A DNA stretch of 32,000 nucleotides, taken from the IMG/VR virus record IMGVR_UViG_3300045988_073130, positions 64,069-96,068 of that record. The stretch is one strand, 5' to 3'. The DNA is from a virus. Numbering within the stretch: the first letter of the stretch is position 1; every line of letters begins with the position of its first letter. This document shows, piece by piece, positions 13,368 through 30,814 of the stretch. The notes under the pieces were generated by a model. It did no database searches, was not told where the DNA came from, and was given only the letters and a program-made list of their open reading frames with translations. Position numbers and translations under genes: made by a program.

Positions 13368-13376
13368 TTCGTTCGC

Positions 13377-13493
13377 CCGGCCGTGCACCACAGGCGCGGC
13401 CGGAATTTTTTATCAAGAGGCAATTTGCACAATTTTCCAGCCGAAATTTTGTGCAGTTTGCCTCTTGTTTTCTATCCCGAAATCTGATATACT
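13377..13493 (+). promoter_or_regulatory. Repeated regulatory cassette, copy B
   Basis: GC hairpin CCGGCCG/CGGCCGG (13377-13403) plus T-tract; TTGCACAA (13425-13432), N16, TTGTGCA (13449-13455); TTGTTT (13465), N17 containing TCCCGAAA, TATACT (13488). Confidence 0.6.
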
Positions 13494-13525
13494 TTAATCA
13501 ACCTAAAGAAAGGAAGTAAATCAAA

Positions 13526-13990: not shown

Positions 13991-14030
13991 TCCACCAGTC
14001 AATCTTAAAATAAGAAAGGAAGTTTTGTAA

Positions 14031-14219
14031 ATGAAGATTAGAAAGGTTAATAGGCTTATCCTCAGCGAGGAAGAGCGACAAGTATTGAAAAATGCGTCCA
14101 TTCTCATTGGTCAAATTGATCAGGTTATGGCCGACAATGAAATTGATGACGATATTTCGCTTGAAGATTTGAGCTATTGGCTTGACGAGATTATCAATAA
14201 AGAATATCTTGGATATTAA
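14031..14219 (+). CDS. Hypothetical acidic protein (62 aa)
   Basis: Track ORF; GAAAGGAAG RBS; TAA stop inside the terminator stem. Confidence 0.55.
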   Translation: MKIRKVNRLILSEEERQVLKNASILIGQIDQVMADNEIDDDISLEDLSYWLDEIINKEYLGY

Positions 14220-14243
14220 GAGGGCTTCGGCCCTCTTATTTTT
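14218..14243 (+). terminator. Rho-independent terminator
   Basis: AGAGGGC-TTCG-GCCCTCT followed by TTTTT. Confidence 0.75.
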
Positions 14244-14263
14244 ACTCTTTAATATCGTTTGGG

Positions 14264-14380
14264 CGGCTCGCTGGCGCACGCGGCGAGCCGAGTTTTTGTT
14301 TTTGTCGATGTTGCACAATTTTGGCTTGCAAATTTTGTGCAATTTGCCATCTTGTAATTATCCCGAAAGTATGGTATTAT
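14264..14380 (+). promoter_or_regulatory. Repeated regulatory cassette, copy C
   Basis: GC hairpin CGGCTCG/CGAGCCG (14264-14290) plus TTTTT; TTGCACAA (14311-14318), N16, TTGTGCAA (14335-14342); TTGTAA (14352), N17 containing TCCCGAAA, TATTAT (14375). Confidence 0.6.
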
Positions 14381-14545
14381 ATATTTGTCAAGAGGGGAAG
14401 GCCAAGAAATCAAGAGGTCGCGAACTCTTAGAAAGTAAAGGAAGTAAATTTATATTGTGTCGTAAGTCGAGTGAACGCCGTTAGAATAGGCCGTTCTAAT
14501 GCCCAGTAGCTTGCAGTAAATCGCAATAAAAATTTCCTTTTCCTC

Positions 14546-14574
14546 TTGACATCAAGCATGATATGTGCTATAAT
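14546..14574 (+). promoter_or_regulatory. Consensus sigma-A promoter
   Basis: TTGACA (14546-14551), N17, TATAAT (14569-14574), 33 nt upstream of the exonuclease start. Confidence 0.7.
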
Positions 14575-14606
14575 AAACTCAACAAGAGGAAAGGAAGTCA
14601 AAGATT

Positions 14607-15398
14607 ATGATTGATAAGCGTAGACACTATGTTTTGGTGGTTGATACTGAAACTGCTAACACACTGACTGAAACTGACGAAAACGGCAAAGCCCGCATGG
14701 ATATGAGTTGCGTTCTTGTCTATGATTGCGGATGGGCGGTAGTGGATACCAAGGGCAATATTTATGAAACTGCCAGTTTTGTAAATAGGGACATTTTCAA
14801 CGATGAGCGGGATCTCATGCGGACTGCTTATTATAATTGGAAAATTCCCCGCTATATTGAGGAACTGCGGGCCGGCACTCGTAAAATGGCTACCACTTAT
14901 GAAATCCGCCAAGCTATGCTCAATACCATTGAGCGATACGGCATTAAGGAAGTTGCGGCTTATAATGCCAGATTTGACGATAATGCCTTGAGAGTTACAC
15001 AGCGTTATGTGACCTACTCCAAGTGGCGTTATTGGTTCCCGTTTGACAGCGTGGAGATTTGGGATATTATGAAGATGACACAGGATGTTATCTGCAATAT
15101 GCCCACTTATAAGAAATTCTGTCAGGAAAACGGATATGTCCAGGCTAATGGTGTCCCCCGCAAGACTGCGGAAATCGTGTGGCGGTTTATCTCTGGCAAT
15201 ACCGATTTTGAAGAAAGTCATACGGGGCTTGAGGATGTTCTGATTGAGGCGGAAATCATGTGGTATTGTATGCGTCAGCATAAGCCCATGAGAAAGGCCC
15301 TGTATGAGAATAAAAGAGAGTTTCCGTCTATGACAGATTTTCAGCGTCAACTTTCCGCAAGTTTGAAAAATAATCCGACAATTCGGGTAGGGGCTTAA
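14607..15398 (+). CDS. DEDDh-family 3'-5' exonuclease (DnaQ/RNase T-like)
   Basis: Exo I VVDTET, Exo II AYNARFD, Exo III ESHTGLEDV (H-x4-D). Length 263 aa. The large antisense ORF 14598..15350 is its shadow. Confidence 0.7.
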   Translation: MIDKRRHYVLVVDTETANTLTETDENGKARMDMSCVLVYDCGWAVVDTKGNIYETASFVNRDIFNDERDLMRTAYYNWKIPRYIEELRAGTRKMATTYEIRQAMLNTIERYGIKEVAAYNARFDDNALRVTQRYVTYSKWRYWFPFDSVEIWDIMKMTQDVICNMPTYKKFCQENGYVQANGVPRKTAEIVWRFISGNTDFEESHTGLEDVLIEAEIMWYCMRQHKPMRKALYENKREFPSMTDFQRQLSASLKNNPTIRVGA

Positions 15399-15425
15399 AG
15401 CCCCGCCCGATAGAAAGGAAAAGAA

Positions 15426-15611
15426 ATGTTTTCAAGACAGTTTACCACTAACCATCTTGACCCCGATTATGTCTATGAGGTTATTCACCTTATGCAGCGA
15501 CTGGGATGGTTTGTTGATGGGCCGACAGAAACCGGACTTTTGACTGTAAATATCCTTCTGGATGATATGCCGCTTTGGGATATGGTTTATAGTTATATGA
15601 TTGATATTTAA
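15426..15611 (+). CDS. Hypothetical protein (61 aa)
   Basis: Track ORF; GAAAGGAAAAG RBS; TAA stop followed by a terminator. Confidence 0.55.
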   Translation: MFSRQFTTNHLDPDYVYEVIHLMQRLGWFVDGPTETGLLTVNILLDDMPLWDMVYSYMIDI

Positions 15612-15641
15612 GAGGGCTTTACAGCCCTCTTATTTTTTTTT
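15610..15641 (+). terminator. Rho-independent terminator
   Basis: AGAGGGC-TTTACA-GCCCTCT followed by a T-run of 9. Confidence 0.75.
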
Positions 15642-15657
15642 ATATCTAAAAGGTCGA

Positions 15658-15817
15658 CGGCCCGCGGATGGCTGACGCGGGCCGAATTTTTCAATGGTAA
15701 TGTTGCACAAAAATTTCGTCCCGTTTTTGTGCAGAATTTTGCACAAAAACTCTCTCCCAAAATTCCGATTTTTTGTGCAATTCGACGCTTGCAATCTGCT
15801 TTTGCTTGTGGTAAAAT
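15658..15817 (+). promoter_or_regulatory. Repeated regulatory cassette, copy D (double operator)
   Basis: GC hairpin CGGCCCGCG/CGCGGGCCG (15658-15684) plus TTTTT. Two inverted-repeat pairs: TTGCACAA 15703 with TTGTGCA 15727, and TTGCACAA 15739 with TTGTGCAA 15773. TCTCCCAAAA at 15753. TTGCAA (15789), N17, TAAAAT (15812). Confidence 0.6.
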
Positions 15818-15888
15818 ACATTCAGAAAGTGAGAGAGACGAACGGCAGACAGTGACAGCGAATTTCTCAAAAATCTTTCAAAAACCTC

Positions 15889-16089
15889 TTGACAAGCCTT
15901 TGAAGATGTGCTATAATAAGTACAGAAAACAAGGCAATGTACCTTGAAAATTAAATAAAAAGGGCTTGACAAACTTTCCAAAGTGTGTTACACTATAAGG
16001 GAGGTTGAGAGGGCAAACAAGTAAAGGGCAAAAGTTCTTGAAAAAAGTTTGAAAAACCTCTTGACAAGTACCAAATAGTGTGGTACAAT
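15889..16089 (+). promoter_or_regulatory. Three tandem strong sigma-A promoters
   Basis: TTGACA 15889, N17, TATAAT 15912. TTGACA 15966, N17, TACACT 15989. TTGACA 16061, N17, TACAAT 16084. The first and third share the upstream motif AAAAACCTC. Confidence 0.7.
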
Positions 16090-16137
16090 ATAATCAAAGG
16101 ACAAGGACAGTCCTAAAAACCAGAAAGGATGTATATT

Positions 16138-16539
16138 ATGGACGAGAAGAAAATCCGCATTACTAAGGCCCAGCGTTTTGAAGACATTAAGGCCCTCTTG
16201 ACTGACGGCGAGGTAAAGTATGGCACTACCATCGAGGTGGCTATTACTATCATTGACCATGAGCTGGAGCTTCTGCGTAAGAAGAATAGCTCTAGCGGTG
16301 ACAAGAAGCTGACTCCCACCCAGCAGGAGAACGAGAATTTTAAGGAGCAGATTATGGAGTATCTGGCTGATCTGGATGCCGATACCGATGGCGTGACCTG
16401 CACGGAAATTTTTAAGGCTATTCCTGATCTGACGGCCTATTCTAACCAGAAGGTCGCCGCCCTTGTGCGGCAGTTGAAACTCGATGGTCGAGTGGTCTGC
16501 ACGGAAAAGAAGGGCAAGTCCCTTTTTAAGATGGCGTAA
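16138..16539 (+). CDS. Putative winged-helix DNA-binding protein (133 aa), paralog of 25927..26367
   Basis: ATG follows AAAGGA. It shares an architecture with 25927..26367: a helical N-terminal part containing HE[LV]ELL, then a C-terminal T..EI.KA......Q.V.A...QL segment. Confidence 0.5.
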   Translation: MDEKKIRITKAQRFEDIKALLTDGEVKYGTTIEVAITIIDHELELLRKKNSSSGDKKLTPTQQENENFKEQIMEYLADLDADTDGVTCTEIFKAIPDLTAYSNQKVAALVRQLKLDGRVVCTEKKGKSLFKMA

Positions 16540-16547
16540 CCCCGTAT

Positions 16548-16572
16548 AGGGCGGGGTGAAAATCCCCGCCCT
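16548..16572 (+). terminator. 9-bp GC hairpin, probable terminator
   Basis: AGGGCGGGG-TGAAAAT-CCCCGCCCT. No clear T-tract. Confidence 0.5.
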
Positions 16573-16596
16573 AACTTATAATATGGGGGTGATATT

Positions 16597-16995
16597 ATAT
16601 CCAGTCGTATTAGTGACGCTGAACGGATTGCAAGGTATAAAGCCCTGCAATTAACGCCGGAAGAGGAGGCAGATTTATTGGCCTATGATAAAGCGGTAGA
16701 GGCTGATAAAAAGACTAAATACGATTTACCGCCAGAAAAGGCGAAAATCGCTCAAAAGTTTGCCCATGCTGGAACGCGCAAACAGCCAACCGCATATAAG
16801 TTCACTACACGGCAACGCAAGCCAAACGCCACGAAAGGCGGTATAATTGCGGAATTGGCAGAGTTTTTGGAAAAAAACAGTCAATTCTCTATCGCTGACT
16901 TGTCTATTACTAACAAGGAAAGACAGATTGCGTTTTCTATTGGTGGGGATAGTTTCGAGTTGACGCTTGTGCAAAAGCGTAAACCGAAGAAATAA
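16597..16995 (+). CDS. Hypothetical basic protein; start codon unresolved (no in-frame ATG/GTG, first TTG at 16678)
   Basis: The frame is open from 16582 and reads protein-like (SSRISDAERIARYKALQLTPEEEADLL) before the track's TTG at 16678. GGGGGTGA lies at 16585-16592, with ATT at 16594 and ATA at 16597 just after it. TAA stop at 16993-16995. Confidence 0.4.
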   Translation: MSSRISDAERIARYKALQLTPEEEADLLAYDKAVEADKKTKYDLPPEKAKIAQKFAHAGTRKQPTAYKFTTRQRKPNATKGGIIAELAEFLEKNSQFSIADLSITNKERQIAFSIGGDSFELTLVQKRKPKK

Positions 16996-16997
16996 CG

Positions 16998-17027
16998 TGG
17001 TAGGGTCGGCCTACCCCGGCCCTACCA
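16998..17027 (+). terminator. Hairpin with two alternative pairings
   Basis: TGGTAGGG (16998-17005) can pair with CCCTACCA (17020-17027), or GGTAGG with CCTACC (17010-17015). Confidence 0.45.
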
Positions 17028-17079
17028 GAAAAGAGGTAAGTTATAGTTAGTTTACAGACAAGGGGAAAAGAGTTTCTAT

Positions 17080-17402
17080 ATGTCGGACATTATATCGACA
17101 AAAAGGGGCGCTATATTCTCAAGATTGGCACGACAAATGATCTTGAGCGCAGAGCCGCAGAACATACGAGAAATTATAAGCGGGCTCCAGATTACACCAT
17201 GCCGGAAGATGGTTCCTTTATCTATGATTGGCATATCAAACTTTCCAAGTATAATACCCTCCGATATGAGGATGTAAACCGGACTTTGTGGCAGAATATG
17301 GGAATTGGTCGTTTTATCAGAAATGACCGTTTCTTGTGCGACACTCCTCCGGCCATGGTTACGGTGGTTATTCGCAAGGCATACCCGATAATTCTCAATT
17401 AA
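17080..17402 (+). CDS. T5orf172/GIY-YIG-like domain protein whose ATG and catalytic-domain frame differ by one nucleotide
   Basis: ATG at 17080 follows AAAAGAG and is in frame 1. The recognisable domain (KKGRYILKIGTTNDLERRAAEH...) is in frame 0 from about 17079 to TAA 17400-17402 and has no canonical start before 17199. The two frames meet at the run A5G4 (17100-17108). Confidence 0.45.
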
Positions 17403-17406
17403 AGAA

Positions 17407-17435
17407 AAATCTCCCCTTATGGGGAGATTTTTTTT
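17407..17435 (+). terminator. Rho-independent terminator
   Basis: AAATCTCCCC-TTAT-GGGGAGATTT followed by TTTTT. Confidence 0.8.
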
Positions 17436-17450
17436 ACGCAAAATTTTGGG

Positions 17451-17567
17451 CGGACCGCTTGCGTGCGCCGCGGTCCGATTTTTTCTTCTATTGTCATTTT
17501 CAACAATTTTGAATTGAAAATCTGTGCAACTTGACAGCTTGACTTTCTCCCAAAAATGTGGTATCAT
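17451..17567 (+). promoter_or_regulatory. Repeated regulatory cassette, copy E
   Basis: GC hairpin CGGACCGC/GCGGTCCG (17451-17477) plus TTTTTT; TTCAACAA (17499), N16, TGTGCAA (17523); TTGACT (17539), N17 containing TCTCCCAAAA, TATCAT (17562). Confidence 0.6.
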
Positions 17568-18397: not shown

Positions 18398-19130
18398 CCC
18401 CGATCGGACCATAGCGCAAAATTTTCATAGCAACTTGGCCATAACGCAACTTCATAGCAATTTTCCCAAAATTCATAACGCCATCTTTCAAACACCGATC
18501 GGCCCTACTTTACTTCTTTCTTTATCTAGTTCCGATCGGTCCAGCAATATTGGCTCTCTCGTCCAATTTTTTATAATAAAAATCTTAAAATTGTCAAGTA
18601 TTCACAGTACCAAAACTTTCTAAAATACAACTAGCAATAGCAAAGATATAGCTATGAAAAACAAATACGACCAGAGATTTCTTTCGCGGAACCGATCGGT
18701 TTAACACGATTTTATGATAAAAAATAGCTCAAAAATAGAGATTTTAGCTAGATAAACCGATCGGCCCGCGATCTTTTACCTCTTGTTATCGCAAAATATA
18801 ACAAAAAACCTCTAAAATCTTGCAAAAATGCGCGTTTTTCTAACAAATTTACTTAAAAATAAGCAAAAAATGCCTCGTTTTTCTCAAAATTTCTTGATAT
18901 TCACAGAATTAAAACCATTAAAGATACAGCAAACAATAGTAAAGATGTTGCTAACTATTTGAAAAGGAAAAATCTTTTCCGCGGGATTCCGTTAAAGCGA
19001 TCTTTTTATCTAGACCCGATCGGTTCGACAATATATAAAAAATATAATATAATATATACATAAGATAAAGAAAAGGAGGATTTTAGTTTAAGAAGCATCA
19101 TAACGCTTTTTCTAACTAAAAGAACTTATT

Positions 19131-19586
19131 ATGAATAGTTATGAGATTATGATTCGTGATGCAATGCAGAATGGTTCTACTCAGGAGGAGATTGCAAAGG
19201 CATTTACTGATGCTATGAATAGAATCTCCGAGGCTAACGCCGCAGACCATGAACGAGATATTCTTCTGGATGAGATTGAGTCTACTTTTTATGGCAATGT
19301 TGATGATTTGTCTCTCACTGAGGATGACGTTGGTCGTGTAGCTGCGCTGGTTTATAGCAAGAGCAATCCTAAGTGGACAGCAAATGATATTAAGCAGTTT
19401 ATGCAGGCTATGACTGTAACTGCTAAGACTTCCGCTCGAGTAGTCAATGCAAAGAGTCTTGATGAAGTAATTGACATTGCTGTTGACTCTATTTCTGATG
19501 CTCTCGCAAAGAGTGTGCCTCAGGTTAAGGGTAATACTAAGTCTGATGAAGATAGTATTATGGAGTTTTTGAAGCATTTAAAGTAA
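19131..19586 (+). CDS. Hypothetical acidic protein (151 aa)
   Basis: Track ORF with a TAA stop and terminator, but a poor SD. The antisense ORF 19116..19577 is its shadow. Confidence 0.55.
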   Translation: MNSYEIMIRDAMQNGSTQEEIAKAFTDAMNRISEANAADHERDILLDEIESTFYGNVDDLSLTEDDVGRVAALVYSKSNPKWTANDIKQFMQAMTVTAKTSARVVNAKSLDEVIDIAVDSISDALAKSVPQVKGNTKSDEDSIMEFLKHLK

Positions 19587-19605
19587 CAAGAGGAAAAAGA
19601 TTAAA

Positions 19606-19640
19606 GGAGAGAGAAGTATTGTAGCTTCTCTCCTTTTTTA
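19606..19640 (+). terminator. Rho-independent terminator
   Basis: GAGAGAAG (19609-19616) pairs with CTTCTCTC (19625-19632), followed by TTTTTT. Confidence 0.7.
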
Positions 19641-19830
19641 TATATATTATAATCGCGGAAGGCTAGGTTTACGATCGTTGTGACGAGTGTTGTGATGGTT
19701 CGTACCTAGACCCGATCGGCACCCAACTCCATCATTTTATAAACTTCTTTTAATTTCCTTTAATTTCTTTCAATCTTCATATCTACATCTCTATCCAGTT
19801 CTATTTATCTCTCTTATCCTTCCAACCAAA

Positions 19831-19983
19831 TCATATTTTATCTCGATTTTTCAATTCGATTTCTCTAAAACCTTCTTCTAACTTTTCAATTCGTTTTTCT
19901 AAATCGGTTATAGAGTCCTCTAAATCTTGAGTAAAAACATCTATACTTATCTACTTCTTCCTTCTACCTTTAAATACTTCCAT
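19831..19983 (-). CDS. Small coiled-coil protein (50 aa) with 1 in-frame TAG
   Basis: ATG at 19983 follows GGAGGA. Translation MEVFKGRRKK-Q-ISIDVFTQDLEDSITDLEKRIEKLEEGF...; TGA stop at 19831-19833. Confidence 0.45.
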
Positions 19984-19999
19984 GCCTTAATCCTCCTAC

Positions 20000-20328
20000 T
20001 CATCGCTTTTTCACAAATACATAAAAAAGTCGCGACTGTTATCTTAACTCTGTTATCTAATATATGTTATATTTGTTGTATTGTCAGAATACCATGAAAT
20101 GGATTTTTATTTACTTTCATGGTATTGTCAGAATACTATGACATGGTATTGTTGGAAAGCTATGAAAATCCTTTTTATTTAATTTCATAGTATTATCAGA
20201 ATACCATGAAAACAATTTCATCGTTTTCCAACAAATACATGAAAATTTCATAGCTTTTTCACAATATGATGAAATCATAGTATTCTCAGAAATACATGAA
20301 ATTTTTCATAGTATTGCAGAAATACGAT
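20000..20328. repeat. Array of about nine 27-30 bp palindromic units
   Basis: Consensus TTTCATGGTATT-GTCAGA-ATACCATGAAA. Units start at about 20000, 20073, 20115, 20139, 20183, 20216, 20246, 20274 and 20304. Units 20115 and 20183 are near-perfect inverted repeats. No unique spacers lie between units. Confidence 0.75.
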
Positions 20329-20717
20329 TAAAAAGAAAATTTCTCTCCATCTGGAGCTATATAATTATACTTATCGTCGTCACTATCAATAGGAATCTCG
20401 TAAAAATCGTAATATCCTTTTCTCTCAACTGGAACTAAATATCCCTTTTTTACCAATCCATCTACTGCACTTGTATATTTCGCTCTCTTTATACCAAGCT
20501 CTTTTTCTATAATAGTAGGCCCAAAATCATAATCAGTTAACCTCTCAGATTGACTAGCAAAAAATATCCACAAAGAGAACTCTCCATCTGTCAACTCTCT
20601 ACGGGCCGCAAATAACGCTTCCTTATTAATCCTAGCATATATATTATTAGTATCACATGGTTCCTTATGAATATGATTAATAGTTCGCTAATTAGGACTT
20701 CTTCTTTTGTCTGCCAT
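20328..20717 (-). CDS. Winged-helix DNA-binding protein (129 aa), paralog of 30314..30814; 1 in-frame TAG
   Basis: ATG at 20717 follows GGAGGA; TAG at 20688-20690. It aligns by eye with 30314..30814: PNQR...I[HN]..H, [IY]FAS, KKGYL/DKGYL, YDFYE[IT]P. TAA stop at 20328-20330, abutting the palindrome array. Confidence 0.55.
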
Positions 20718-20913
20718 GGCAATCATCCTCCAATAGCGAACTTATCCCTTTATACTTCTAAACTGCATCCCTTAAATCCTAACTATCTTCAAAAAGATAA
20801 ACATTTAACCAAGGTTTCTAAACATTAGGAACAGTTCCAACAATAATAAAACCAAGATCACAAAGTTTGCGTGCTAACTTTACCGTAAAAACTTTATAAG
20901 TATCATTAGTCAT
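20692..20913 (-). CDS. DUF5659-like small protein (73 aa) with 3 in-frame TAG
   Basis: ATG at 20913 follows AAGGAGA. Translation MTNDTYKVFTVKLARKLCDLGF....VYLFEDS.DL. TAA stop at 20692-20694 overlaps the next gene. The family call is from memory only. Confidence 0.4.
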
Positions 20914-20928
20914 TTAGTTTAATCTCCT

Positions 20929-21072
20929 TTAGTCTATTTTATTTTTCTCAATATATTCTTTAACAGCCTTTCTAATTACCTAAGACATTGTTAAATCACA
21001 ACTCTTAGCAAAGACTTCCAAATCTTTCTTCTCTTCCTCTGTTAATCTAACAGAAACAGTGGAATAATTCAT
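20929..21072 (-). CDS. Ribbon-helix-helix (CopG/Arc-type) repressor (47 aa) with 1 in-frame TAG
   Basis: Translation MNYSTVSVRLTEEEKKDLEVFAKSCDLTMS-Q-VIRKAVKEYIEKN, the classic RHH pattern. GAGGTGA RBS. TAG at codon 31. Confidence 0.65.
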
Positions 21073-21125
21073 AAAATCACCTCTCTACTATTCTTTACTT
21101 TTATTATAACATAATTTTCCGGTTT

Positions 21126-21265
21126 TGTCCTAAAATTTGTTAAACTTTTTTCTAAAATTATAAACAATAGAACAATCAATACATTAGAAAATTTTGGACA
21201 AGTCATTAGAAAAAATCGGACACTTTATTAGAAATTTTTGGACACTCGTTAGAAAATTTTGGACA
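21126..21265. promoter_or_regulatory. Operator array: four tandem TTAGAAAATTTTGGACA repeats plus one inverted copy
   Basis: Direct copies at 21184, 21206, 21228 and 21249 (spacing 22, 22, 21 bp). The inverted copy at 21126-21143 overlaps the -35 region of a minus-strand TGnTATAAT promoter upstream of the RHH gene. Confidence 0.65.
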
Positions 21266-21443
21266 AAAATACCTCTATGACCATTTTATTAAAATTACCG
21301 CGGAATTGTCAATTTCTCTGCCTAAAAAATTCCCGCATCCCCGCGAGAAATTATGACGGTTCGTTATAATCCATAAGATTTACTTGCGTATCTTAATAAA
21401 ATATGGTAATATATTTATATAAATAAGAAAAGAGGTTTTACTT

Positions 21444-21950
21444 ATGCCATTAGCTATTGGATTCTTTATATTACTCATGGTTACATCTCTTATAGTATTA
21501 TATAAAGACTGTGACTCTTTTGCAGAATATCTATTCTCTACAATTCTCGGAGTTGTACTTTCAGCATTTATCGCTTTCTTATTTGCGATTATAATTTGTG
21601 GTATTGTTATTTTTGTTGAACCCGCAACCTATTCTGCGAAAACCACTCAAACATATTCTATTACTGCTTTGAGTGATAATTTTAGTTCTTACGTAGGCCG
21701 TTATTATACAGAAGATGGGCTCTATTACTCATTCCTGTATCAAACCGATAAAGGTGTAACCGCCAAATCTATTGAGGCAGATCAGTCCTATATTAAGAAT
21801 ACAGATGATGCCCCATACATAGAAGAAAACAAAATCCGTTTTAAAAACCCAGTTTTGAATTTCCTGCTTGGACCCTGGTCTACTGAGTATACCATCTATA
21901 TTCCAGAAGATTCATTTATCCAAGAGAATTATGTAATCGACCTTGAGTAA
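21444..21950 (+). CDS. Membrane protein (168 aa), two N-terminal TM helices
   Basis: Track ORF. Promoter TTGCGT-N17-TAATAT upstream. Hydrophobic stretches are AIGFFILLMVTSLIVL and LGVVLSAFIAFLFAIIICGIVIFV. Confidence 0.6.
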   Translation: MPLAIGFFILLMVTSLIVLYKDCDSFAEYLFSTILGVVLSAFIAFLFAIIICGIVIFVEPATYSAKTTQTYSITALSDNFSSYVGRYYTEDGLYYSFLYQTDKGVTAKSIEADQSYIKNTDDAPYIEENKIRFKNPVLNFLLGPWSTEYTIYIPEDSFIQENYVIDLE

Positions 21951-21953
21951 AAT

Positions 21954-21987
21954 AAAGACGCTCTTAAAAGAGCGTCTTTATTTTTTT
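21954..21987 (+). terminator. Rho-independent terminator
   Basis: AAAGACGCTCTT pairs with AAGAGCGTCTTT, followed by a T-run of 7. Confidence 0.75.
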
Positions 21988-22039
21988 ATAAAATTATTAT
22001 ATAATATATATAGAAAGTTAAGGAAAGGAAGTAAAAGTT

Positions 22040-22474
22040 ATGAAGATTAGTGAACTGATTAAATCAGAAGGATATAAGAACTCCACTGTAAGAATCTGCG
22101 AGTTCCTCGGCTTTTCTGATACAGACCAACTCAAAAGAGCTAAATTCTTCGCTATTCAAGAAACTTATAGTCCTATTCCGATTCTTGGGGTTAGTATTAG
22201 TAATGGAGACCCAACTTGGCGGTTATGCGAAGTAGATAATAATGTAAGAGATCTCTATTCTGTTGATGAAGGATATAAAATTCGCCTTAAAATTTGCAAC
22301 GAGTTCGGAGGTCGTACTTACTATCAAAGTGACTTTCTTTCCTTGCTAAAAAGTGGACATATTGTTTACTGTCCCGATGAAAATAAATATGAAATTAAAC
22401 ACATCATTTGCGCAGAAAAAATCAGCAATGGAGCAATCTTAATTCATGAGTTTGATTCTGTAGAGGAGGTATAA
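22040..22474 (+). CDS. Hypothetical protein (144 aa)
   Basis: Track ORF; TATAAT promoter with the ATATATAGAAAG leader; SD AGGAAAGGAAG. Confidence 0.6.
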   Translation: MKISELIKSEGYKNSTVRICEFLGFSDTDQLKRAKFFAIQETYSPIPILGVSISNGDPTWRLCEVDNNVRDLYSVDEGYKIRLKICNEFGGRTYYQSDFLSLLKSGHIVYCPDENKYEIKHIICAEKISNGAILIHEFDSVEEV

Positions 22475-22477
22475 AAT

Positions 22478-22669
22478 ATGGATATGTCATTTTTCGCATA
22501 CACTGGCGCTTTTGAACTGGCTGCTCGAGAATTGGCTTCAAAGCCATGGGCTATGAATGATCCATCTCAGCAAGCTCAAATCTGCGCAAAATACGGCATC
22601 TTTTTTGATAACATAACAGATGATGAAATTGATATGCTTTCTCAAATGGTTGAAGAGTATTCTAATTAA
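22478..22669 (+). CDS. Hypothetical acidic protein (63 aa)
   Basis: Track ORF; GAGGAGG RBS. Confidence 0.55.
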   Translation: MDMSFFAYTGAFELAARELASKPWAMNDPSQQAQICAKYGIFFDNITDDEIDMLSQMVEEYSN

Positions 22670-22685
22670 AGAAAGGAAGAGAAAT

Positions 22686-23222
22686 ATGATTGGTGAGACT
22701 ATTACTGTAAATGGAGTAAAGTGCCTTGTTCTTGACGAAATTGATGGTAACCCCTTCGTAATTGCACTTGAAGTGGGAATTGATTTTGTCTTTGGAAATT
22801 CTAATAACTATAAAGAGAGTACATTGCGGAAGGGCGCTGAGGCTTGGCTTAAGAAAACTGGCATCAAGGCTATTCCGCGCGATGTTGACCTGACTGCAAT
22901 GGATGGATATAAAGGATATGGTTCGCTAAATACCACTGTTGCACCACTTACCTTCGATGAACATCGAAAGTATAATCATATCCTAACCCCTCATATCAAG
23001 GATTCGTTCTGGCTTGTTACTCCTTGGGGAAGCCCTGAAAAGGATAATTGGGCCTCGATCTACGTTTGCGGTGTCTACACCGATGGATCTGCGGACTACA
23101 CCTACTACGGCGGCAGCATCGGGCTGGCGCCGGCTTTCATTCTTGATAAAAATGGGAAATCTCTTAGTGACTTTACTAACGAGGAGCTAATTGCTGAACT
23201 CAACAAGAGACTGAAGGTATAA
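22686..23222 (+). CDS. Hypothetical protein (178 aa), DUF6273-like
   Basis: ATG follows AAAGGAAGAG; the track start at 22620 is inside the previous gene. Motifs FWLVTPWGSP and GLAPAFIL recall DUF6273, from memory only. Confidence 0.5.
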   Translation: MIGETITVNGVKCLVLDEIDGNPFVIALEVGIDFVFGNSNNYKESTLRKGAEAWLKKTGIKAIPRDVDLTAMDGYKGYGSLNTTVAPLTFDEHRKYNHILTPHIKDSFWLVTPWGSPEKDNWASIYVCGVYTDGSADYTYYGGSIGLAPAFILDKNGKSLSDFTNEELIAELNKRLKV

Positions 23223-23225
23223 GAT

Positions 23226-24101
23226 ATGTATATCCTCAATTCAAGTCTTATAAATCTTATCCTTACCGAATACGCCGAAAAAGTTAAATTCGGTTATAAT
23301 AAAATTTCGTATGATTCGTGGAGAACCCTAAAGAAACTAAGTAATACTAGTACCGATTATATAGTCAAAATAGAGATTACAGATAAAAACTCTATGCTCT
23401 ATTTAACTGACACCGGAACCGATATTACCAGCGCGATCCCTGTAACTGATGGATTCGCTTATCTTGTTAAAGAAAGGACTATTCATATGGTTGACACCAA
23501 TTCTAACATCAATGCGCCTATGCCCAACAAAAGCGGAAACACTACTCGAAAAGGCTTTAATATGAACTTTGATTTTGGCCCTTGCGGAGATGAGGTGGCC
23601 TTTTCTCCTTATGGCTTGGCTATTCGTAATTCTAAGGGTGAATATTTTACCTATAATCCTACCTCTAAGCAGACCATTGATGTGACTGGTTTTACTTTCA
23701 CCTTCCAGAATATGGTATATCGTATGCCTGTCGCGGCTTCTGCTGTAAAGGAAGGCGACATGATTATTCATAAGCATCACCCCATGTTCGTTTCGTCAAT
23801 TTCTGAAGGTAACATTGAAGTCATTGATATCCTTGAGTCTGAGGTTAAAACTGTAATTCCCACCTCTAATCCCTTTGGCTTTAACTTTATTACCAAGATT
23901 ATGCCTATCGTAAACTTTGGTAATACTGCACCTTCTCCTGACCAGCCTTTTGGCAATCTCATGCCTATGATGATGGCAAGCATGGTGTTTGGCAATAATG
24001 ATGGCAATAATGGAAACGATATGGGTAAAATGTTTATGCTTTCTGCTATGATGGGCAACTCTAATCCTTTTAGCTTCCTCACTGGAGACACATCTAAGTA
24101 A
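23226..24101 (+). CDS. Hypothetical protein (291 aa) with Met/Asn/Gly-rich C-terminal tail
   Basis: Track ORF. The tail reads PFGNLMPMMMASMVFGNNDGNNGNDMGKMFMLSAMMGNSNPF. Three antisense track ORFs are shadows. Confidence 0.6.
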   Translation: MYILNSSLINLILTEYAEKVKFGYNKISYDSWRTLKKLSNTSTDYIVKIEITDKNSMLYLTDTGTDITSAIPVTDGFAYLVKERTIHMVDTNSNINAPMPNKSGNTTRKGFNMNFDFGPCGDEVAFSPYGLAIRNSKGEYFTYNPTSKQTIDVTGFTFTFQNMVYRMPVAASAVKEGDMIIHKHHPMFVSSISEGNIEVIDILESEVKTVIPTSNPFGFNFITKIMPIVNFGNTAPSPDQPFGNLMPMMMASMVFGNNDGNNGNDMGKMFMLSAMMGNSNPFSFLTGDTSK

Positions 24102-24107
24102 TCCTAA

Positions 24108-24140
24108 TAGGCGAGATTGGAGAATTTCCAATCTCGCCTA
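24108..24140 (+). terminator. 13-bp hairpin, probable terminator
   Basis: TAGGCGAGATTGG pairs with CCAATCTCGCCTA. A T-run begins about 15 nt later. Confidence 0.55.
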
Positions 24141-24229
24141 CCCGCGCATCTTCTATTTTTTTCTTTTGTTGCAATTATATTTATTATAATATATAATAAA
24201 TATATAAAATAAGAAAGGAAGTAAATGCC

Positions 24230-24460
24230 ATGACTGCTATTATTACTTGCTCTATTGAAAATAAAACTTTTGAGAGCCATTTCCCTATTGATAGAGAAAC
24301 TCCTGAGTATATGATCGCGGACGAGGCATATAGGCTTGCTATTCTTTTCGCACAAACTCAATTTATCGCAAAATTCGGTAGAATTATTTCTGGATATGAT
24401 TTTGGCGAATTTCTCAAAAATCTTGATTATGATTATAAAATCAAAGAAGAGGCATCTTAA
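24230..24460 (+). CDS. Hypothetical protein (76 aa)
   Basis: Track ORF; SD GAAAGGAAGTAAA. Confidence 0.55.
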   Translation: MTAIITCSIENKTFESHFPIDRETPEYMIADEAYRLAILFAQTQFIAKFGRIISGYDFGEFLKNLDYDYKIKEEAS

Positions 24461-24476
24461 AACTTTATTAACTAAC

Positions 24477-24510
24477 AAAGAGCTTCCTTAAAGGAAGCTC
24501 TTTTTCTTTT
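24477..24510 (+). terminator. Rho-independent terminator
   Basis: AAAGAGCTTCC pairs with GGAAGCTCTTT, followed by a T-tract. Confidence 0.75.
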
Positions 24511-24570
24511 GCAAAAATTAAAAAATAATGATATAATAATTATAGAAGATGAGGAAAGGAGTATCAAAAG

Positions 24571-24792
24571 ATGAAGAATTACTATGAATACGAGGTAGAA
24601 ATGTTCGAGGAGTTTCAAGTAAAGACTTATCAGGGCATTACATACGGTAACGACTTCGCTGAAGCTCTCAGAAATGTAGCTGATTACTACGGCGAGGAAA
24701 ATTTAAATTCTGTAAAAATTATCCCCTGGGATTGCGAAGGTTGTATTAGCTTGAGCAAGAACGCGCTTAATGAAATTCGTGAAAATCATTAA
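24571..24792 (+). CDS. Hypothetical acidic protein (73 aa)
   Basis: Track ORF; GGAAAGGAG RBS. Confidence 0.55.
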   Translation: MKNYYEYEVEMFEEFQVKTYQGITYGNDFAEALRNVADYYGEENLNSVKIIPWDCEGCISLSKNALNEIRENH

Positions 24793-24805
24793 GGAGGTTT
24801 AAATT

Positions 24806-25288
24806 ATGCCTGTTGCACCTAGTTTTCAGTCCTATAAGCGCATTACTGAAGAGCCTTTTATTAAAAATGGTAAATATTATGTTACTGTAGAGCATCCAAA
24901 TACTAAGAATCATCGAGATGTTCGCTACTATAGCGATGCAGAATATGCAAAAGCCTATGGTAAGAAGATTGTTGATACCGATAAAGGCTATGATGGTCTA
25001 AAGCATGCTCGCGGCTTTGACAATGGGCCTATTCTTGTAATTCGTGGAAATAAGGCCGCTGACGAAGATTGGTTGCGGGAGTCCGTAGCTAGATATGCCG
25101 TAGGGATTGGTTGGTATATCGCTTCTACCGATATTTTCCCTGATGATGCTCCTGAGCATCTGAAGTATCTCCTGCTCGGTTGGGATGAATTCCGTGATGG
25201 AGATGACCGTCATATGAAGAAACCTGCGGATTTGTCTACCTTACTCGATAAAAAAGCTAGAAATAAGGAATGGGTTAAAATGAAATGA
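24806..25288 (+). CDS. Hypothetical protein (160 aa)
   Basis: Track ORF; TAAGGAGG RBS; TGA stop. Confidence 0.6.
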   Translation: MPVAPSFQSYKRITEEPFIKNGKYYVTVEHPNTKNHRDVRYYSDAEYAKAYGKKIVDTDKGYDGLKHARGFDNGPILVIRGNKAADEDWLRESVARYAVGIGWYIASTDIFPDDAPEHLKYLLLGWDEFRDGDDRHMKKPADLSTLLDKKARNKEWVKMK

Positions 25289-25440
25289 AAACTACTCTGC
25301 TGCTAATACTATATATGTTCCTTGTCTTTTCGTCTCTAATACTTCTGTATTCTTCACCAACAATGCTTCACGCAGTCTTATATAGCATCTCCGCAACTTG
25401 TTGGATTACAAATCTAATCCTTTTCATTAGAGATATTTGA
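25285..25440 (+). CDS. Small membrane protein (51 aa, two hydrophobic helices)
   Basis: The start overlaps the previous stop (ATGA). Translation MKTTLLLILYMFLVFSSLILLY...ISATCWITNLILFI. Confidence 0.4.
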   Translation: MKTTLLLILYMFLVFSSLILLYSSPTMLHAVLYSISATCWITNLILFIRDI

Positions 25441-25535
25441 CATAAAAATTACCACTTTAGTCAAGGAATCGGTTTGCAAAAAACAAAAAAATAAGTTATA
25501 ATAAATATAGAAAGTAGGAAAGGAGATTTCTTGTA

Positions 25536-25844
25536 ATGAGCGTTAGCTATTTTACTAAAATCGTCTATGGAGTTCGTCTTGAAAATGACGAAATCAATGT
25601 CTTAAATCAGAAGGATGATGAATTTTGTGATAAAAATTGCGATTTTATTCACAGAGCTAACTACTATGATAATGATGAAGATATTGTAATTGGTATTCAA
25701 GTAGGCGATGACGTTGAAGAAGGGACAATTAGAGAAATCACTTTCTCTAATAACAATCTTGAAACCAGTGAACTTAAAAACATTTTGGGCGCGTTAAACA
25801 TTACGCGAGAACCTAAATGGTATGTAGTCCATTGTGTTTTGTAA
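25536..25844 (+). CDS. Hypothetical acidic protein (102 aa)
   Basis: Track ORF; promoter TTTGCA-N18-TATAAT; GGAAAGGAG RBS. Confidence 0.6.
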   Translation: MSVSYFTKIVYGVRLENDEINVLNQKDDEFCDKNCDFIHRANYYDNDEDIVIGIQVGDDVEEGTIREITFSNNNLETSELKNILGALNITREPKWYVVHCVL

Positions 25845-25926
25845 ATTACAAGAAATTTTCTTGACTTTACTCAAAAAATATCATATAATATAAATACAAT
25901 AAAACAAGAGAGGAATTGATTAAATT

Positions 25927-26367
25927 ATGTCTAACACTGTAAAGAAGCCCACAAAGAAAGCCAATTATAATGCTATTTTGAGCATTTTGTCTGTCGCTGA
26001 GAACGAGGGTCTTGTCCTCGAGTCCAGTGAAATTACTTATGATAGTCTGCGCGAGTTCGTCGAGCACGAGGTCGAGTTGCTTGACAATAAGGCTGCTGCT
26101 GCCGCTAAGAGAGCTGCTGCTAAGAAGGTCGAGGGAGATGCTCTTCGCGAGAAGATTTATGAAGTCCTTGGTGATGAGCCTATGACTATCAATGATATTG
26201 TAAAGGCTTTGAACGACGAGGACATTTCTGCTCAGATGGTTACTGCTCGTCTAACCCAGCTTGCTTCTCCTGAGGTCAATCGTGTTGCTAAGGAGACCGT
26301 AAGTGTTCCTGCTTCCACTGAGGGTGGAAAGTCTAAGAAGCTCTCTGCTTACCGCAGAATTGGCTAA
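25927..26367 (+). CDS. Putative winged-helix DNA-binding protein (146 aa), paralog of 16138..16539
   Basis: Track ORF. Contains VEHEVELLDNK, an Ala/Lys-rich linker, and a C-terminal MTINDIVKAL...AQMVTARLTQL segment. Confidence 0.5.
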   Translation: MSNTVKKPTKKANYNAILSILSVAENEGLVLESSEITYDSLREFVEHEVELLDNKAAAAAKRAAAKKVEGDALREKIYEVLGDEPMTINDIVKALNDEDISAQMVTARLTQLASPEVNRVAKETVSVPASTEGGKSKKLSAYRRIG

Positions 26368-26522
26368 TTAAAACCTTTAGAAAGGTATCTACGAAAAGTA
26401 GATACCTTTCTTTTTAGCCATACTTTAGTACAAATTGCAAATCCAGAAGGGCCACCTGGAAAATTCATAATATGAAATGCCGCGAATAATATTACGCAAA
26501 TAGCGATAATAATAAAAACCAC
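26349..26522 (-). CDS. Small hydrophobic peptide (57 aa if TAG is read through, 52 aa to the TAG)
   Basis: GTG at 26522 lies 8 nt after AAGGAG and downstream of a perfect minus-strand promoter. Translation VVFIIIAICVILFAAFHIMNFPGGPSGFAICTKVWLKRK... The 3' end overlaps the stop region of 25927..26367. Confidence 0.4.
26380..26416. terminator. 13-bp hairpin between convergent transcripts
   Basis: GAAAGGTATCTAC pairs with GTAGATACCTTTC, with TTTTT on the plus strand. Confidence 0.7.
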
Positions 26523-26552
26523 AGTTAAAACTCCTTTTTTATTTATATATTT

Positions 26553-26631
26553 ATTATAACAAAAACAAAAGGATGTGTCAATTTGGCATTTTCATCTCAA
26601 GATTGACGGATTTTTTATTATATGCTATAAT
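26553..26631. promoter_or_regulatory. Back-to-back consensus promoters
   Basis: Minus strand: TTGACA (complement of 26576-26581), N17, TATAAT (complement of 26553-26558). Plus strand: TTGACG (26603-26608), N17, TATAAT (26626-26631). Confidence 0.7.
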
Positions 26632-26660
26632 AAATATATAAATAAAGGAGGGCTTATTTA

Positions 26661-30313: not shown

Positions 30314-30814
30314 GTGCCGAATACTGTACCCAATCAAAGAGTTGTCGCCATTCACCGCGAACACGCCTCGTCCGACTTCCTCGGCATCAAAAATGAGCAT
30401 TGGCAAGCGGCGGCACGCGATTTGGGCGCACACGCGCTCATGCTCTACCTCTATTTCGCATCCAACGCAAACGGCTACGTGTTAGCGTTGTCTCCCGCCG
30501 CCATCCGTCAGGCGGTTGGAATGGCGGCATCCACCTACCGCGACCAATTTTTGAAGCTCGTTGACAAAGGTTATCTTGTTCAGCGCGGCAGCGGCAATAC
30601 ATACGATTTCTATGAAACGCCGCAGCGGGAGACGCGTTTACACAATGAGAATACGCCTGTTGGCCTTGACTTTACGGCAGCCGTCCAGAAGCAAACGCAA
30701 GCCGTTCAGAATGGAACGCCTGAGGATATAGAAATAAATATAAATAATACAAATATAAAAAATACGGGCGTGGAGAAACAAGTTTCTCCAACGCCATCCG
30801 AATTTTATTTTTAA
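30314..30814 (+). CDS. Winged-helix DNA-binding protein (166 aa), paralog of 20328..20717
   Basis: GTG lies 7 nt after GGGGAG and after the upstream TAA. The similarity is described under 20328..20717. Confidence 0.55.
   Translation: MPNTVPNQRVVAIHREHASSDFLGIKNEHWQAAARDLGAHALMLYLYFASNANGYVLALSPAAIRQAVGMAASTYRDQFLKLVDKGYLVQRGSGNTYDFYETPQRETRLHNENTPVGLDFTAAVQKQTQAVQNGTPEDIEININNTNIKNTGVEKQVSPTPSEFYF

What the first reader, a model, noticed from the sequence alone, without database searches (positions are those of the whole stretch)
20000..20717. Array of about nine 29-bp palindromic units abutting a winged-helix protein gene
What is seen:
- Units of consensus TTTCATGGTATT-GTCAGA-ATACCATGAAA are packed head to tail over 330 bp with no unique spacers. 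Two are nearly perfect inverted repeats.
- The array starts at the stop codon of 20328..20717 and ends at the RBS/promoter region of the small coiled-coil gene at 19983.
- The adjacent protein has a paralog at 30314..30814 in the GC-richer module, which suggests a family of sequence-specific binders.

The arrangement resembles iteron-type origins next to their initiator gene. It also resembles a high-copy operator or sink for a dimeric regulator.
Basis: partly seen in the sequence, partly recalled or inferred. Interest (0 to 1): 0.65.

Follow-up and report, generated by a model that had tools for sequence, protein, structure and literature searches.

The report
Phage iteron array beside initiator-like gene
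A gut phage that reads TAG as glutamine carries nine copies of a 29-bp palindrome directly after a small DNA-binding gene related to phage replication initiators, so this is most likely an unstudied but ordinary kind of replication origin with its binding protein.

Summary
The array is real. Nine units of TTTCATGGTATT-N5-AATACCATGAAA lie at window 19998-20332. They run from the stop codon of the winged-helix (WH) gene 20717..20328 (-) to the RBS of a 50-aa gene. The motif occurs nowhere else in the 32 kb.

- **Genetic code:** The phage reads TAG as Gln, and the WH gene has a TAG at codon 10.
- **Conservation:** All 22 other loci examined that encode a close homologue (at least 74% identity) keep the array directly after the gene, with 6-9 units where the array is complete.
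- **Co-variation:** Four divergent homologues (about 38-49% identity) also carry an array at or after the gene's 3' end. The outer TTTCAT half-site is kept in three of them, and the unit sequence is different in each.
- **Not hairpins:** The two arms of the units show no compensatory changes, so these are dyad protein sites.
- **Family:** 45 of the 62 nearest cluster representatives match PHROG replication-initiation families.
- **Origin-like layout:** An AT-rich stretch with AGATAACA repeats interrupts the array, and a similar element recurs in the relatives.

My best reading is an origin-like site bound by WH dimers, comparable to lambda O with ori-lambda. Binding by the WH protein is about 0.8 likely and origin function about 0.5. 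Nothing here shows replication. The "paralog" belongs to a cassette 95% identical to bacterial integrative elements and has no array.

The parts
19998..20332 (-). Array of nine 29-bp dyad-symmetric units (u1 at 20332..20304 down to u9 at 20026..19998, read in the direction of the operon). u1 overlaps the stop codon of the winged-helix gene. u6 and u7 overlap each other (24-nt spacing).
   Evidence: the arms show no covariation
20027..20070 (-). AT-rich spacer between u8 and u9. It holds AGATAACA twice (20044..20037 and 20058..20051) and ATATAACA, then the palindrome GTCGCGAC. It is a candidate DNA-unwinding element, a promoter -10, or both.
   Evidence: Duplex stability is in the least-stable 2% of the window but is not its minimum. 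There is a promoter-like CTGACA-17-TATATT at 20087..20059. A similar element follows arrays with different units in L031 and L087, and a variant AGAATACA element follows the L030 array.
20328..20717 (-). Gene for a 129-aa winged-helix protein with TAG (Gln) at codon 10. It has an N-terminal strand, a wHTH at residues 32-106, and a disordered acidic tail ending in the conserved tip DGEKFSF.
20692..20913 (-). 73-aa DUF5659-like gene (3 TAG codons) that overlaps the start of the winged-helix gene.
20929..21072 (-). 47-aa ribbon-helix-helix (CopG/Arc-like) gene, first in the operon (1 TAG codon).
21103..21131 (-). Promoter-like site of the operon (AGGACA-17-TATAAT with an extended TG). It is conserved in L002.
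19831..19983 (-). 50-aa coiled-coil ORF (TAG at codon 11) directly after u9. Its sequence is mosaic and variable among relatives.
19744..19865 (-). The most purine-rich stretch of the window on the transcribed strand (80% A+G in an 80-nt window starting at 19744). It is repeat-rich and variable in relatives.
19651..19737 (-). Nearly invariant non-coding element, 92-96% identical where the flanks are about 79%. It contains CGATCG twice and CTAGG/CCTAG. Its function is unknown.
19608..19633 (.). Bidirectional terminator-like hairpin that closes the operon.

Best explanation
The array is a cluster of binding sites for dimers of the adjacent 129-aa winged-helix (WH) protein. Together they form an origin-like nucleoprotein complex of the phage.

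**Shown:**
- Nine dyad-symmetric units occur at a single locus.
- Gene and array stay linked in close relatives. In divergent relatives the unit sequence changes together with the recognition helix.
- The protein is related to the DNA-binding N-terminal domains of phage replication initiators.

**Inferred:**
- WH dimers coat u1-u8 and u9. A-tract spacers bend the DNA.
- The AT-rich AGATAACA-repeat spacer between u8 and u9 is where strands open.
- The disordered acidic tail with its conserved C-terminal tip ([DN]G[EK]xF[ES]F-COOH) recruits a partner such as a helicase, a loader or a polymerase.
- Transcription entering from the operon promoter, or from the promoter-like site in u8, may help activate the site. 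The transcript of the adjacent tract is very purine-rich.
- All four operon genes contain TAG codons. The complex can therefore form only after the phage has switched the cell to reading TAG as Gln.
For: - **Array significance and single locus:**. The strict unit pattern occurs at only one locus in each of the 98-, 114- and 163-kb IMG/VR contigs.
- **Protein sites, not hairpins:** 75.6% of arm cells pair, against 77.8% in shuffles, and only one pair shows changes on both sides.
- **Linkage in close relatives:** every one of the 22 other loci that encodes a homologue of at least 74% identity has the array directly after the stop codon. Complete arrays have 6-9 units and a conserved spacing pattern of 44/45, 24, 44, 69-73.
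- **Co-variation in divergent relatives:**
  - L030 (P0122, 49% identity) has units TTTCATGTACCTCTGAGAGGATTATGA.
  - L031 (P0123, 47%) has TTTCATAGGTACAAAATGACCCTATGA.
  - L087 (P0124, 48%) has GGGTTCAAAATGAACCC.
  - L033 (P0278, 38% in the alignment) has TATATGAAAAwTTCATATA.
  - All these arrays start in or just after the gene's 3' end. The recognition-helix residues differ between lineages.
  - L033 has no RHH or DUF5659 gene upstream, so the array goes with the WH gene.
- **Family:** 45 of the 62 nearest cluster representatives match phrog_270 (replication initiation protein), 28 match a DnaD-like loader family and 25 an O-like family. Only two match regulator families. 22 of 63 match Pfam HTH_36.
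- **Gene-internal arrays:** in relatives the units encode the protein's linker repeats, for example QNDPM. Ori-lambda likewise lies inside gene O (PMC6022878), and SPP1 oriL lies inside gene 38 (PMC6316719).
- **Second cis element:** an AT-rich element with A[GT]ATAACA repeats follows or interrupts arrays whose units differ.
- **Operon order:** an RHH gene precedes the WH gene, and the RHH protein has sub-threshold matches to plasmid copy-control proteins.
Against: - No experiment or marker-frequency data show replication starting here.
- The protein itself has no significant PHROG hit and only a sub-threshold Pfam hit (HTH_36, E 0.005). The family assignment goes through its relatives.
- It lacks any helicase-loader or other second domain. 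No helicase, primase or polymerase gene was recognised in the 32-kb window.
- The AT-rich spacer is unstable but is not the least stable point of the window.
- GC skew in the window follows gene orientation and gives no independent origin signal.
- TAG codons in all operon genes imply expression only after the code switch, which is late for a primary initiator.
- More distant family members, about 200 aa or of the integrative-element type, have no array.
- The structural match to solved proteins is only to generic wHTH regulators.
Confidence: 0.5

Rival explanations
1. Operator or roadblock array. The WH protein would be a transcription regulator. By coating the array it would switch off, or time, a promoter inside the array that drives the small coiled-coil gene and the conserved non-coding element downstream. 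Alternatively the array would act as a sink that titrates the protein.
For: - A promoter-like CTGACA-17-TATATT has its -35 in the centre of u8. u9 lies between this -10 and the RBS of the small gene.
- The -10-like AT-rich element is conserved in relatives.
- The fold resembles MarR/GntR/Zur-type regulators.
- A few family members hit regulator PHROGs.
Against: - Eight or nine sites over 330 bp is far more than one small promoter needs.
- No sites occur elsewhere in 32 kb.
- In L030 no unit lies next to the RBS.
- In relatives the arrays lie inside the coding 3' end of the gene, which is not where operators sit.
- The downstream gene is variable and is replaced between lineages, while the array is kept.
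- The nearest relatives overwhelmingly match replication-initiation families.
Confidence: 0.2
2. Another DNA-transaction site organised by a late-made protein. It could be a replication-fork barrier that triggers the theta-to-sigma switch, as proposed for gp38 bound at SPP1 oriR. It could also be a packaging-recognition site (pac or cosB-like) read by a winged-helix protein, as lambda gpNu1 reads cosB.
For: - All operon genes need TAG suppression, so the protein is probably made after the code switch.
- The SPP1 precedent for an origin-binding protein acting as a fork barrier is in PMC6316719.
- Several metagenomic contigs end inside the array (L004, L025, L031 and L032).
- A nearly invariant 87-nt element lies about 260 nt further on.
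Against: - The contig ends fall at different units, and no contig ends at the invariant element. This looks like assembly breakage at repeats.
- Other contigs, and the window itself, read straight through the array.
- The large terminase gene is 15 kb away (2812-4557) with its own upstream partner gene.
- The protein hits no terminase family.
Confidence: 0.12
3. Centromere-like partition site. Its adaptor protein would be the WH protein, as TubR binds tubC or ParR binds parC, serving a plasmid-like prophage state.
For: - A small WH protein sits next to an array of repeats.
- Its conserved C-terminal peptide could capture a filament-forming NTPase.
- The RHH gene in the operon weakly resembles plasmid maintenance proteins.
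Against: - No ParA, ParM or TubZ-type NTPase gene is in the operon or anywhere in the window.
- The same gene-array pair occurs in a compact integrase-carrying element.
- The family matches replication-initiation families, not partition families.
Confidence: 0.06
4. RNA-level element. The palindromes would act as hairpins in the operon transcript, for example as mRNA stabilisers, processing sites or attenuators.
For: The 352-nt transcript folds far better than shuffles (z = -7.0). The array lies between two co-directional genes.
Against: - There is no compensatory variation between the arms. Pairing is no better than in shuffled partners.
- Several units (class TTTCATGTATTT...AAAGCGATGA) have non-complementary inner arms.
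- The centres of orthologous units flip orientation between lineages.
- There is no Rfam match.
Confidence: 0.03

Closest known systems
Phage lambda ori-lambda with O protein (and lambdoid 'O-like' initiators)
   Same: - Ori-lambda has several iterons, each an inverted repeat bound by a protein dimer. They are joined by A-rich DNA and sit beside an AT-rich unwinding region of about 40 bp (PMC6022878).
- The sites lie in or next to the initiator gene. In relatives of this WH protein the units lie inside the gene and encode its linker.
- 25 of 62 close relatives match an O-like PHROG.
   Different: - Units here are 29 bp rather than 18-19 bp, and there are nine rather than four.
- One unit lies beyond the AT-rich region.
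- The protein is 129 aa with only a short C-terminal peptide, where O has a P-binding domain.
- No P-like loader gene is adjacent.
- In this phage the array lies outside the ORF.
Bacillus phage SPP1 gp38 (replisome organizer) with oriL/oriR
   Same: - An origin-binding protein has its repeats and an AT-rich DUE within or next to its own gene.
- The tightly bound protein is also proposed to act later as a fork barrier (PMC6316719).
   Different: - SPP1 uses direct repeats and has adjacent loader (gp39) and helicase (gp40) genes. None is seen here.
- No direct sequence match to gp38 was tested.
Iteron plasmids with winged-helix Rep proteins (pPS10 RepA, F RepE, R6K pi); cop-rep operons such as pMV158 copG-repB. 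This comparison rests on my own knowledge.
   Same: - A WH initiator sits beside an iteron array.
- A small RHH gene heads the operon. It has sub-threshold matches to the ORF56 plasmid copy-control protein.
   Different: - Plasmid iterons are direct repeats bound by monomers, and inverted repeats serve as operators. Here every unit is a dyad.
- No significant sequence match to Rep_3 or RepA families was found. The only hit was RepC at E 0.009, for the paralog.
TubR-tubC / ParR-parC centromere complexes (own knowledge)
   Same: A small DNA-binding adaptor coats an array of repeats next to its gene and uses a terminal peptide to hold a partner.
   Different: No NTPase gene is in the operon, and the family relationship points to replication initiators.

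Membership tests
Iteron-type replication origin with cognate initiator (lambda O / SPP1 gp38 type) | A cluster of repeated initiator-binding sites at one locus | tested here: met
   There are nine units at 19998-20332, and none elsewhere in the window or the flanking loci.
Iteron-type replication origin with cognate initiator (lambda O / SPP1 gp38 type) | The sites are specific to the adjacent protein, so gene and repeats stay linked and change together | tested here: met
   Linkage holds in 22 of 22 other loci with close homologues. Four lineages at about 38-49% identity have arrays with different unit sequences at the same position. Physical binding was not tested.
Iteron-type replication origin with cognate initiator (lambda O / SPP1 gp38 type) | The DNA-binding domain is homologous to those of known initiators | tested here: inconclusive
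   The protein itself has no PHROG hit and only a sub-threshold Pfam hit (HTH_36, E 0.005). Its relatives do match: 45 of 62 hit phrog_270, others hit DnaD-like or O-like families, and 22 of 63 hit HTH_36. PHROG names are annotations, not tested functions.
Iteron-type replication origin with cognate initiator (lambda O / SPP1 gp38 type) | An adjacent AT-rich DNA-unwinding element | tested here: inconclusive
   The spacer 20027-20070 is among the least stable 2% of the window but is not its minimum. A similar ATAACA-repeat element follows the arrays of L031 and L087, and a variant follows that of L030. The same DNA also looks like a promoter.
Iteron-type replication origin with cognate initiator (lambda O / SPP1 gp38 type) | The initiator has a domain, or a neighbouring gene, that loads a helicase | tested here: not met
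   The protein is 129 aa: a WH domain plus a 20-aa tail. No loader, helicase or primase gene was recognised in the window. The conserved C-terminal tip is only a candidate recruiting peptide.
Iteron-type replication origin with cognate initiator (lambda O / SPP1 gp38 type) | Replication starts at the site | not testable with these tools
   This needs marker-frequency data, 2D gels or plasmid replication assays. GC skew in the 32-kb window only follows gene orientation.
Partition centromere with adaptor protein (ParR/TubR type) | A cognate NTPase (ParA, ParM or TubZ) is encoded in the same operon | tested here: not met
   The operon encodes RHH, DUF5659, WH and a 50-aa ORF. No NTPase family was hit in the window.
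Structured RNA / repetitive extragenic palindromes | Pairing between the arms is maintained by compensatory changes | tested here: not met
   Arm cells are 75.6% paired against 77.8% in shuffles, and the covariation score is below the shuffles. There is no Rfam family match.
Terminase small subunit with pac/cosB site | The protein matches a TerS family and is encoded next to the large terminase, and genome ends map at the site | tested here: not met
   No terminase family was hit. TerL lies at 2812-4557, 15 kb away. Contig ends fall inside the array at different units, and other contigs read through.

The most novel reading that the evidence does not exclude
This could be the founding example of a minimal origin-binding protein family in phages and small integrative elements of gut Clostridia. 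Each member would consist of a winged-helix domain, a disordered linker encoded by the protein's own iterons, and a C-terminal F-x-F tip that tethers the replication machinery. In this phage the conserved TAG at codon 10 would make origin firing, or a late switch of replication mode, depend on the phage's change of the genetic code. That would link stop-codon recoding to the control of DNA replication, and not only to lysis.
Probability: 0.15. Interest if true: 0.7.

Novelty: new variant of a known kind. Interest (0 to 1): 0.45.

Why it matters
Origins of replication are unknown for nearly all uncultured gut phages, including the stop-codon-recoded ones. A sequence signature would let origins be predicted directly from metagenomes. 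The signature here is a small HTH_36-type winged-helix gene with a dyad-repeat array at its 3' end and an ATAACA-repeat AT-rich element. It also gives a concrete protein-DNA pair to test.

The TAG codon near the start of the gene is conserved in every sequenced close relative. If the site is an origin or a replication switch, it offers a way to test whether code switching times DNA transactions as well as lysis. If the array proves to be only an operator set, the finding is ordinary.

Tried and rejected
- **Annotated phages:** a blastn search of 19000-22000 against INPHARED phages found no match.
- **Structured RNA:** Rfam gave nothing above threshold, for the region or for the whole window. 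There are no tRNAs in the window.
- **Solved structures:** a sequence profile against PDB gave only E of about 1 to generic wHTH proteins. A Foldseek search of the AF2 model (pLDDT 72) found only generic MarR/Zur/GntR-type WH domains at E of at least 0.085. There is no specific structural relative.
- **Hairpin hypothesis:** rejected, because the arms show no covariation.
- **Arrays beside other family members:** none next to the paralog, next to integrative-element-type members, or next to about 200-aa members L035 and L037.
- **Collection searches that found nothing:** the WH gene in species-representative genomes, and P0122 and P0124 in IMG/VR.
- **AGATAACA as a phage promoter motif:** rejected. 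There are only 3 copies in 32 kb, two of them in the spacer.
- **Contig ends as genome termini:** the ends are scattered, and the 98-kb contig that ends in the array lacks the WH gene. Assembly breakage is the simpler reading.
- **GC skew and duplex stability:** neither gave a decisive origin signal.
- **Invariant 87-nt element:** it is too conserved for covariation analysis.

Full report
**1. What is in the sequence.**

Window 19998-20332 holds nine copies of a 29-bp hyphenated palindrome, with consensus TTTCATGGTATT-CTGAC-AATACCATGAAA. The operon is transcribed on the minus strand. Read in that direction, the units start 31, 27, 30, 33, 44, 24, 44 and 73 nt apart.

- Some units abut and one pair overlaps.
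- Two gaps are 15-nt A-rich spacers.
- A 44-nt AT-rich stretch separates unit 8 from unit 9.

The 12-nt half-site with at most 1 mismatch occurs six times, all inside the array, against 0.95 expected. A position-weight scan finds no unit anywhere else in the 32 kb.

**2. Genetic code and gene models.**

The window comes from a phage that reads TAG as glutamine:

- The portal, large terminase and sigma-like genes at 3-6852 (minus strand) contain 5-14 in-frame TAGs each. They become ORFs of 275-583 aa only if TAG is read as sense.
- The paralog has PNQR where this gene has PN-TAG-R.
- Relatives exchange TAG with CAA or CAG at homologous codons.

With that code the array sits inside a small minus-strand operon:

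- a promoter-like site at 21131..21103;
- a 47-aa ribbon-helix-helix gene at 21072..20929;
- a 73-aa DUF5659-like gene at 20913..20692;
- the 129-aa winged-helix (WH) gene at 20717..20328;
- the array;
- a 50-aa coiled-coil ORF at 19983..19831;
- about 220 nt of non-coding DNA;
- a bidirectional terminator at 19608-19633.

All four genes contain TAG codons.

**3. Protein sites or hairpins?**

The transcript would fold strongly (z = -7), but any palindrome array does that. I compared the two arms across 29 distinct units from three lineages. They are no more complementary than when partners are shuffled (75.6% against 77.8%), and there is essentially no compensatory change.

- Several units have non-complementary inner arms while keeping the outer TTTCAT...ATGAAA.
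- The centres of orthologous units flip orientation between lineages.

This is the behaviour of dyad-symmetric binding sites for a dimeric protein. It is not the behaviour of a selected RNA or DNA hairpin.

**4. Does the array belong to the adjacent gene?**

Close relatives come from human-gut viral and metagenome contigs of up to 163 kb, with 74-99% protein identity. All have the array directly after the stop codon:

- 22 of 22 other loci carry it.
- Complete arrays have 6-9 units (two contigs stop inside the array).
- The distal spacing pattern is conserved.

More telling is an exhaustive search, which found homologues of roughly 38-49% identity whose DNA I could retrieve. Each again has an array that begins in or just after the 3' end of the gene, with a different unit:

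| Locus (protein) | Unit sequence |
|---|---|
| L030 (P0122) | TTTCATGTACCTCTGAGAGGATTATGA |
| L031 (P0123) | TTTCATAGGTACAAAATGACCCTATGA |
| L087 (P0124) | GGGTTCAAAATGAACCC |
| L033 (P0278) | TATATGAAAAwTTCATATA |

- The outer TTTCAT half-site is kept in three of the four lineages. The inner bases change, as do the residues of the predicted recognition helix.
- L033 has no RHH or DUF5659 gene upstream, so the array travels with the WH gene and not with its operon partners.
- In L031 and L087 the DNA units lie inside the ORF and encode the peptide repeats of the protein's linker, for example QNDPM.

I take binding of the units by the WH protein as about 0.8 likely. It is inferred, not shown.

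**5. What kind of protein is it?**

The AlphaFold model has mean pLDDT 72. It shows an N-terminal strand, a four-helix winged-helix domain and a disordered tail. Its matches to solved structures are only to generic wHTH regulators.

The protein itself has no significant family hit. Its nearest relatives do. Of 62 cluster representatives, the numbers matching each family are:

- phrog_270 (replication initiation protein): 45
- a DnaD-like loader family: 28
- phrog_428 (replication initiation protein): 27
- an O-like family: 25
- regulator families: 2
- Pfam HTH_36: 22 of the 63 sequences scanned, which include the query

The homologous region is always N-terminal, in proteins of 100-380 aa.

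The closest relatives share a layout: WH domain, low-complexity linker, and an invariant C-terminal tip [DN]G[EK]xF[ES]F-COOH. By analogy this looks like a partner-recruiting peptide. That is inference only.

**6. Origin-like features of the DNA.**

The array is interrupted by an AT-rich element holding ATATAACA and two copies of AGATAACA, followed by a short GC palindrome and then one more unit.

- A similar ATAACA-repeat element, followed by a GC-rich hairpin, occurs after or inside the arrays of L031 and L087. L030 has an AGAATACA variant. This holds even though their palindromic units differ.
- The motif is not a general promoter word of the phage. It has 3 copies in 32 kb, two of them in this spacer.
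- The stretch is in the least stable 2% of the window but is not its minimum.
- It also matches a sigma-70-like promoter whose -35 lies in unit 8.

Downstream lie two further features:

- The transcribed strand at 19744-19865 is the most purine-rich stretch of the window (80% A+G in an 80-nt window).
- An 87-nt element at 19651-19737 is 92-96% identical in relatives whose flanks are about 79% identical.

The overall layout is dyad iterons joined by A-rich DNA, an AT-rich repeat element, and a position in or next to the gene of the binding protein. [quoted passage not shown] SPP1 oriL within gene 38 is similar (PMC6316719).

**7. What argues against a simple origin.**

- Nothing here shows replication.
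- The protein has no second domain. No helicase, loader, primase or polymerase gene was recognised in the 32 kb.
- GC skew only follows gene orientation.
- All four operon genes need TAG suppression. In recoded phages early genes are thought to be readable in the standard code, although use of the alternative code in replication genes is described as variable (preprint 10.1101/2021.08.26.457843). A protein made only after the code switch fits a late role at least as well as primary initiation. Such roles include a second origin, a switch of replication mode, or a fork barrier like gp38 at oriR.
- Unit 8 and unit 9 bracket a promoter-like site, so regulation of the downstream transcript remains possible.
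- More distant family members have no arrays.

**8. The paralog.**

The protein at 30314..30814 is a true homologue (33% identity). However, window 29973-31428 is 95% identical in DNA to small integrase-bearing elements in bacterial chromosomes. The best isolate match is Hominicoprocola fusiformis at 93% amino-acid identity, and the other matches are almost all gut Clostridia.

This segment is a horizontally acquired cassette. It has no array. It does give a clue to the host.

**9. Verdict.**

- The protein-array pairing is well supported by comparative evidence.
- The kinship with initiator DNA-binding domains is supported through relatives.
- Origin activity is untested and carries real caveats.

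I put origin-like function at 0.5, operator or roadblock at 0.2, another late DNA-transaction site at 0.12, a centromere at 0.06 and an RNA element at 0.03.

This is a new variant of a known kind. It is moderately interesting, mainly as a predictable origin signature for uncultured gut phages and because of the conserved early TAG codon in the gene.

Noticed in passing
window 1-6852 (minus strand) and the whole window: The phage reads TAG as Gln. The portal, large terminase, sigma-like and neighbouring genes carry 5-14 in-frame TAGs each, while the + strand genes at 21444-27437 carry none. No suppressor tRNA is encoded in the window.
   Followed up: partly
window 20688-20690 (codon 10 of the winged-helix gene) and codon 11 of the small ORF 19983..19831: Both genes have a TAG about 10 codons after the start. 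The TAG at codon 10 is kept in every sequenced relative of at least 74% identity, although other Gln codons switch between CAA, CAG and TAG. The 49%-identity homologue P0122 has CAG there. It may act as a translational gate.
   Followed up: partly
window 19651-19737: This non-coding element is 92-96% identical in relatives whose flanks are about 79% identical. It contains CGATCG twice and CTAGG/CCTAG. It has no Rfam match and is too invariant for a covariation test.
   Followed up: partly
window 19744-19865: This is the most strand-asymmetric stretch of the window: 80% pyrimidine on the + strand in an 80-nt window starting at 19744, so its transcript would be 80% purine. Relatives have variable short tandem repeats at the same place (L002 6984-7028, L004 about 7660-7720, L031 3700-3785).
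   Followed up: no
window 21182-21266: A 22-bp tandem repeat of 3.9 copies (GTCCAAAATTTTCTAA core) lies upstream of the operon promoter. It is absent from L002, which keeps only one inverted copy next to the promoter. It could be the binding site of the RHH protein.
   Followed up: partly
window 29973-31428: The GC-richer cassette (85-aa, 166-aa and 73-aa genes) is 95% identical in DNA to small integrase-bearing elements inserted next to selB in gut Clostridia. The best isolate match is Hominicoprocola fusiformis. This indicates recent horizontal transfer and gives a host clue.
   Followed up: partly
window 24457-24547: A second short stretch is 95.6% identical to L001, while its flanks are 72-81% identical.
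   Followed up: no
window 10000-17500: This region has higher G+C (40-45% against about 30% elsewhere). ORF calls at about 11.5-13.5 kb are poor and overlap on both strands. There is no Rfam or tRNA hit, and its nature was not examined.
   Followed up: no
window about 21865-21986 (ends of L017, L020, L026 and L029): Four independent metagenomic contigs end within about 120 nt of each other, near the 3' end of gene 21444-21950. The neighbouring stretch 21421-21709 is highly divergent between lineages. This is probably assembly breakage at a variable region.
   Followed up: partly
window 8592-9359: The phage encodes a microbial-type poly(ADP-ribose) glycohydrolase domain protein (Pfam PF10021, E 3.5e-26). 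FolD-like and uracil-DNA-glycosylase-like genes lie elsewhere in the window (7229-8014 and 27503-28216).
   Followed up: no
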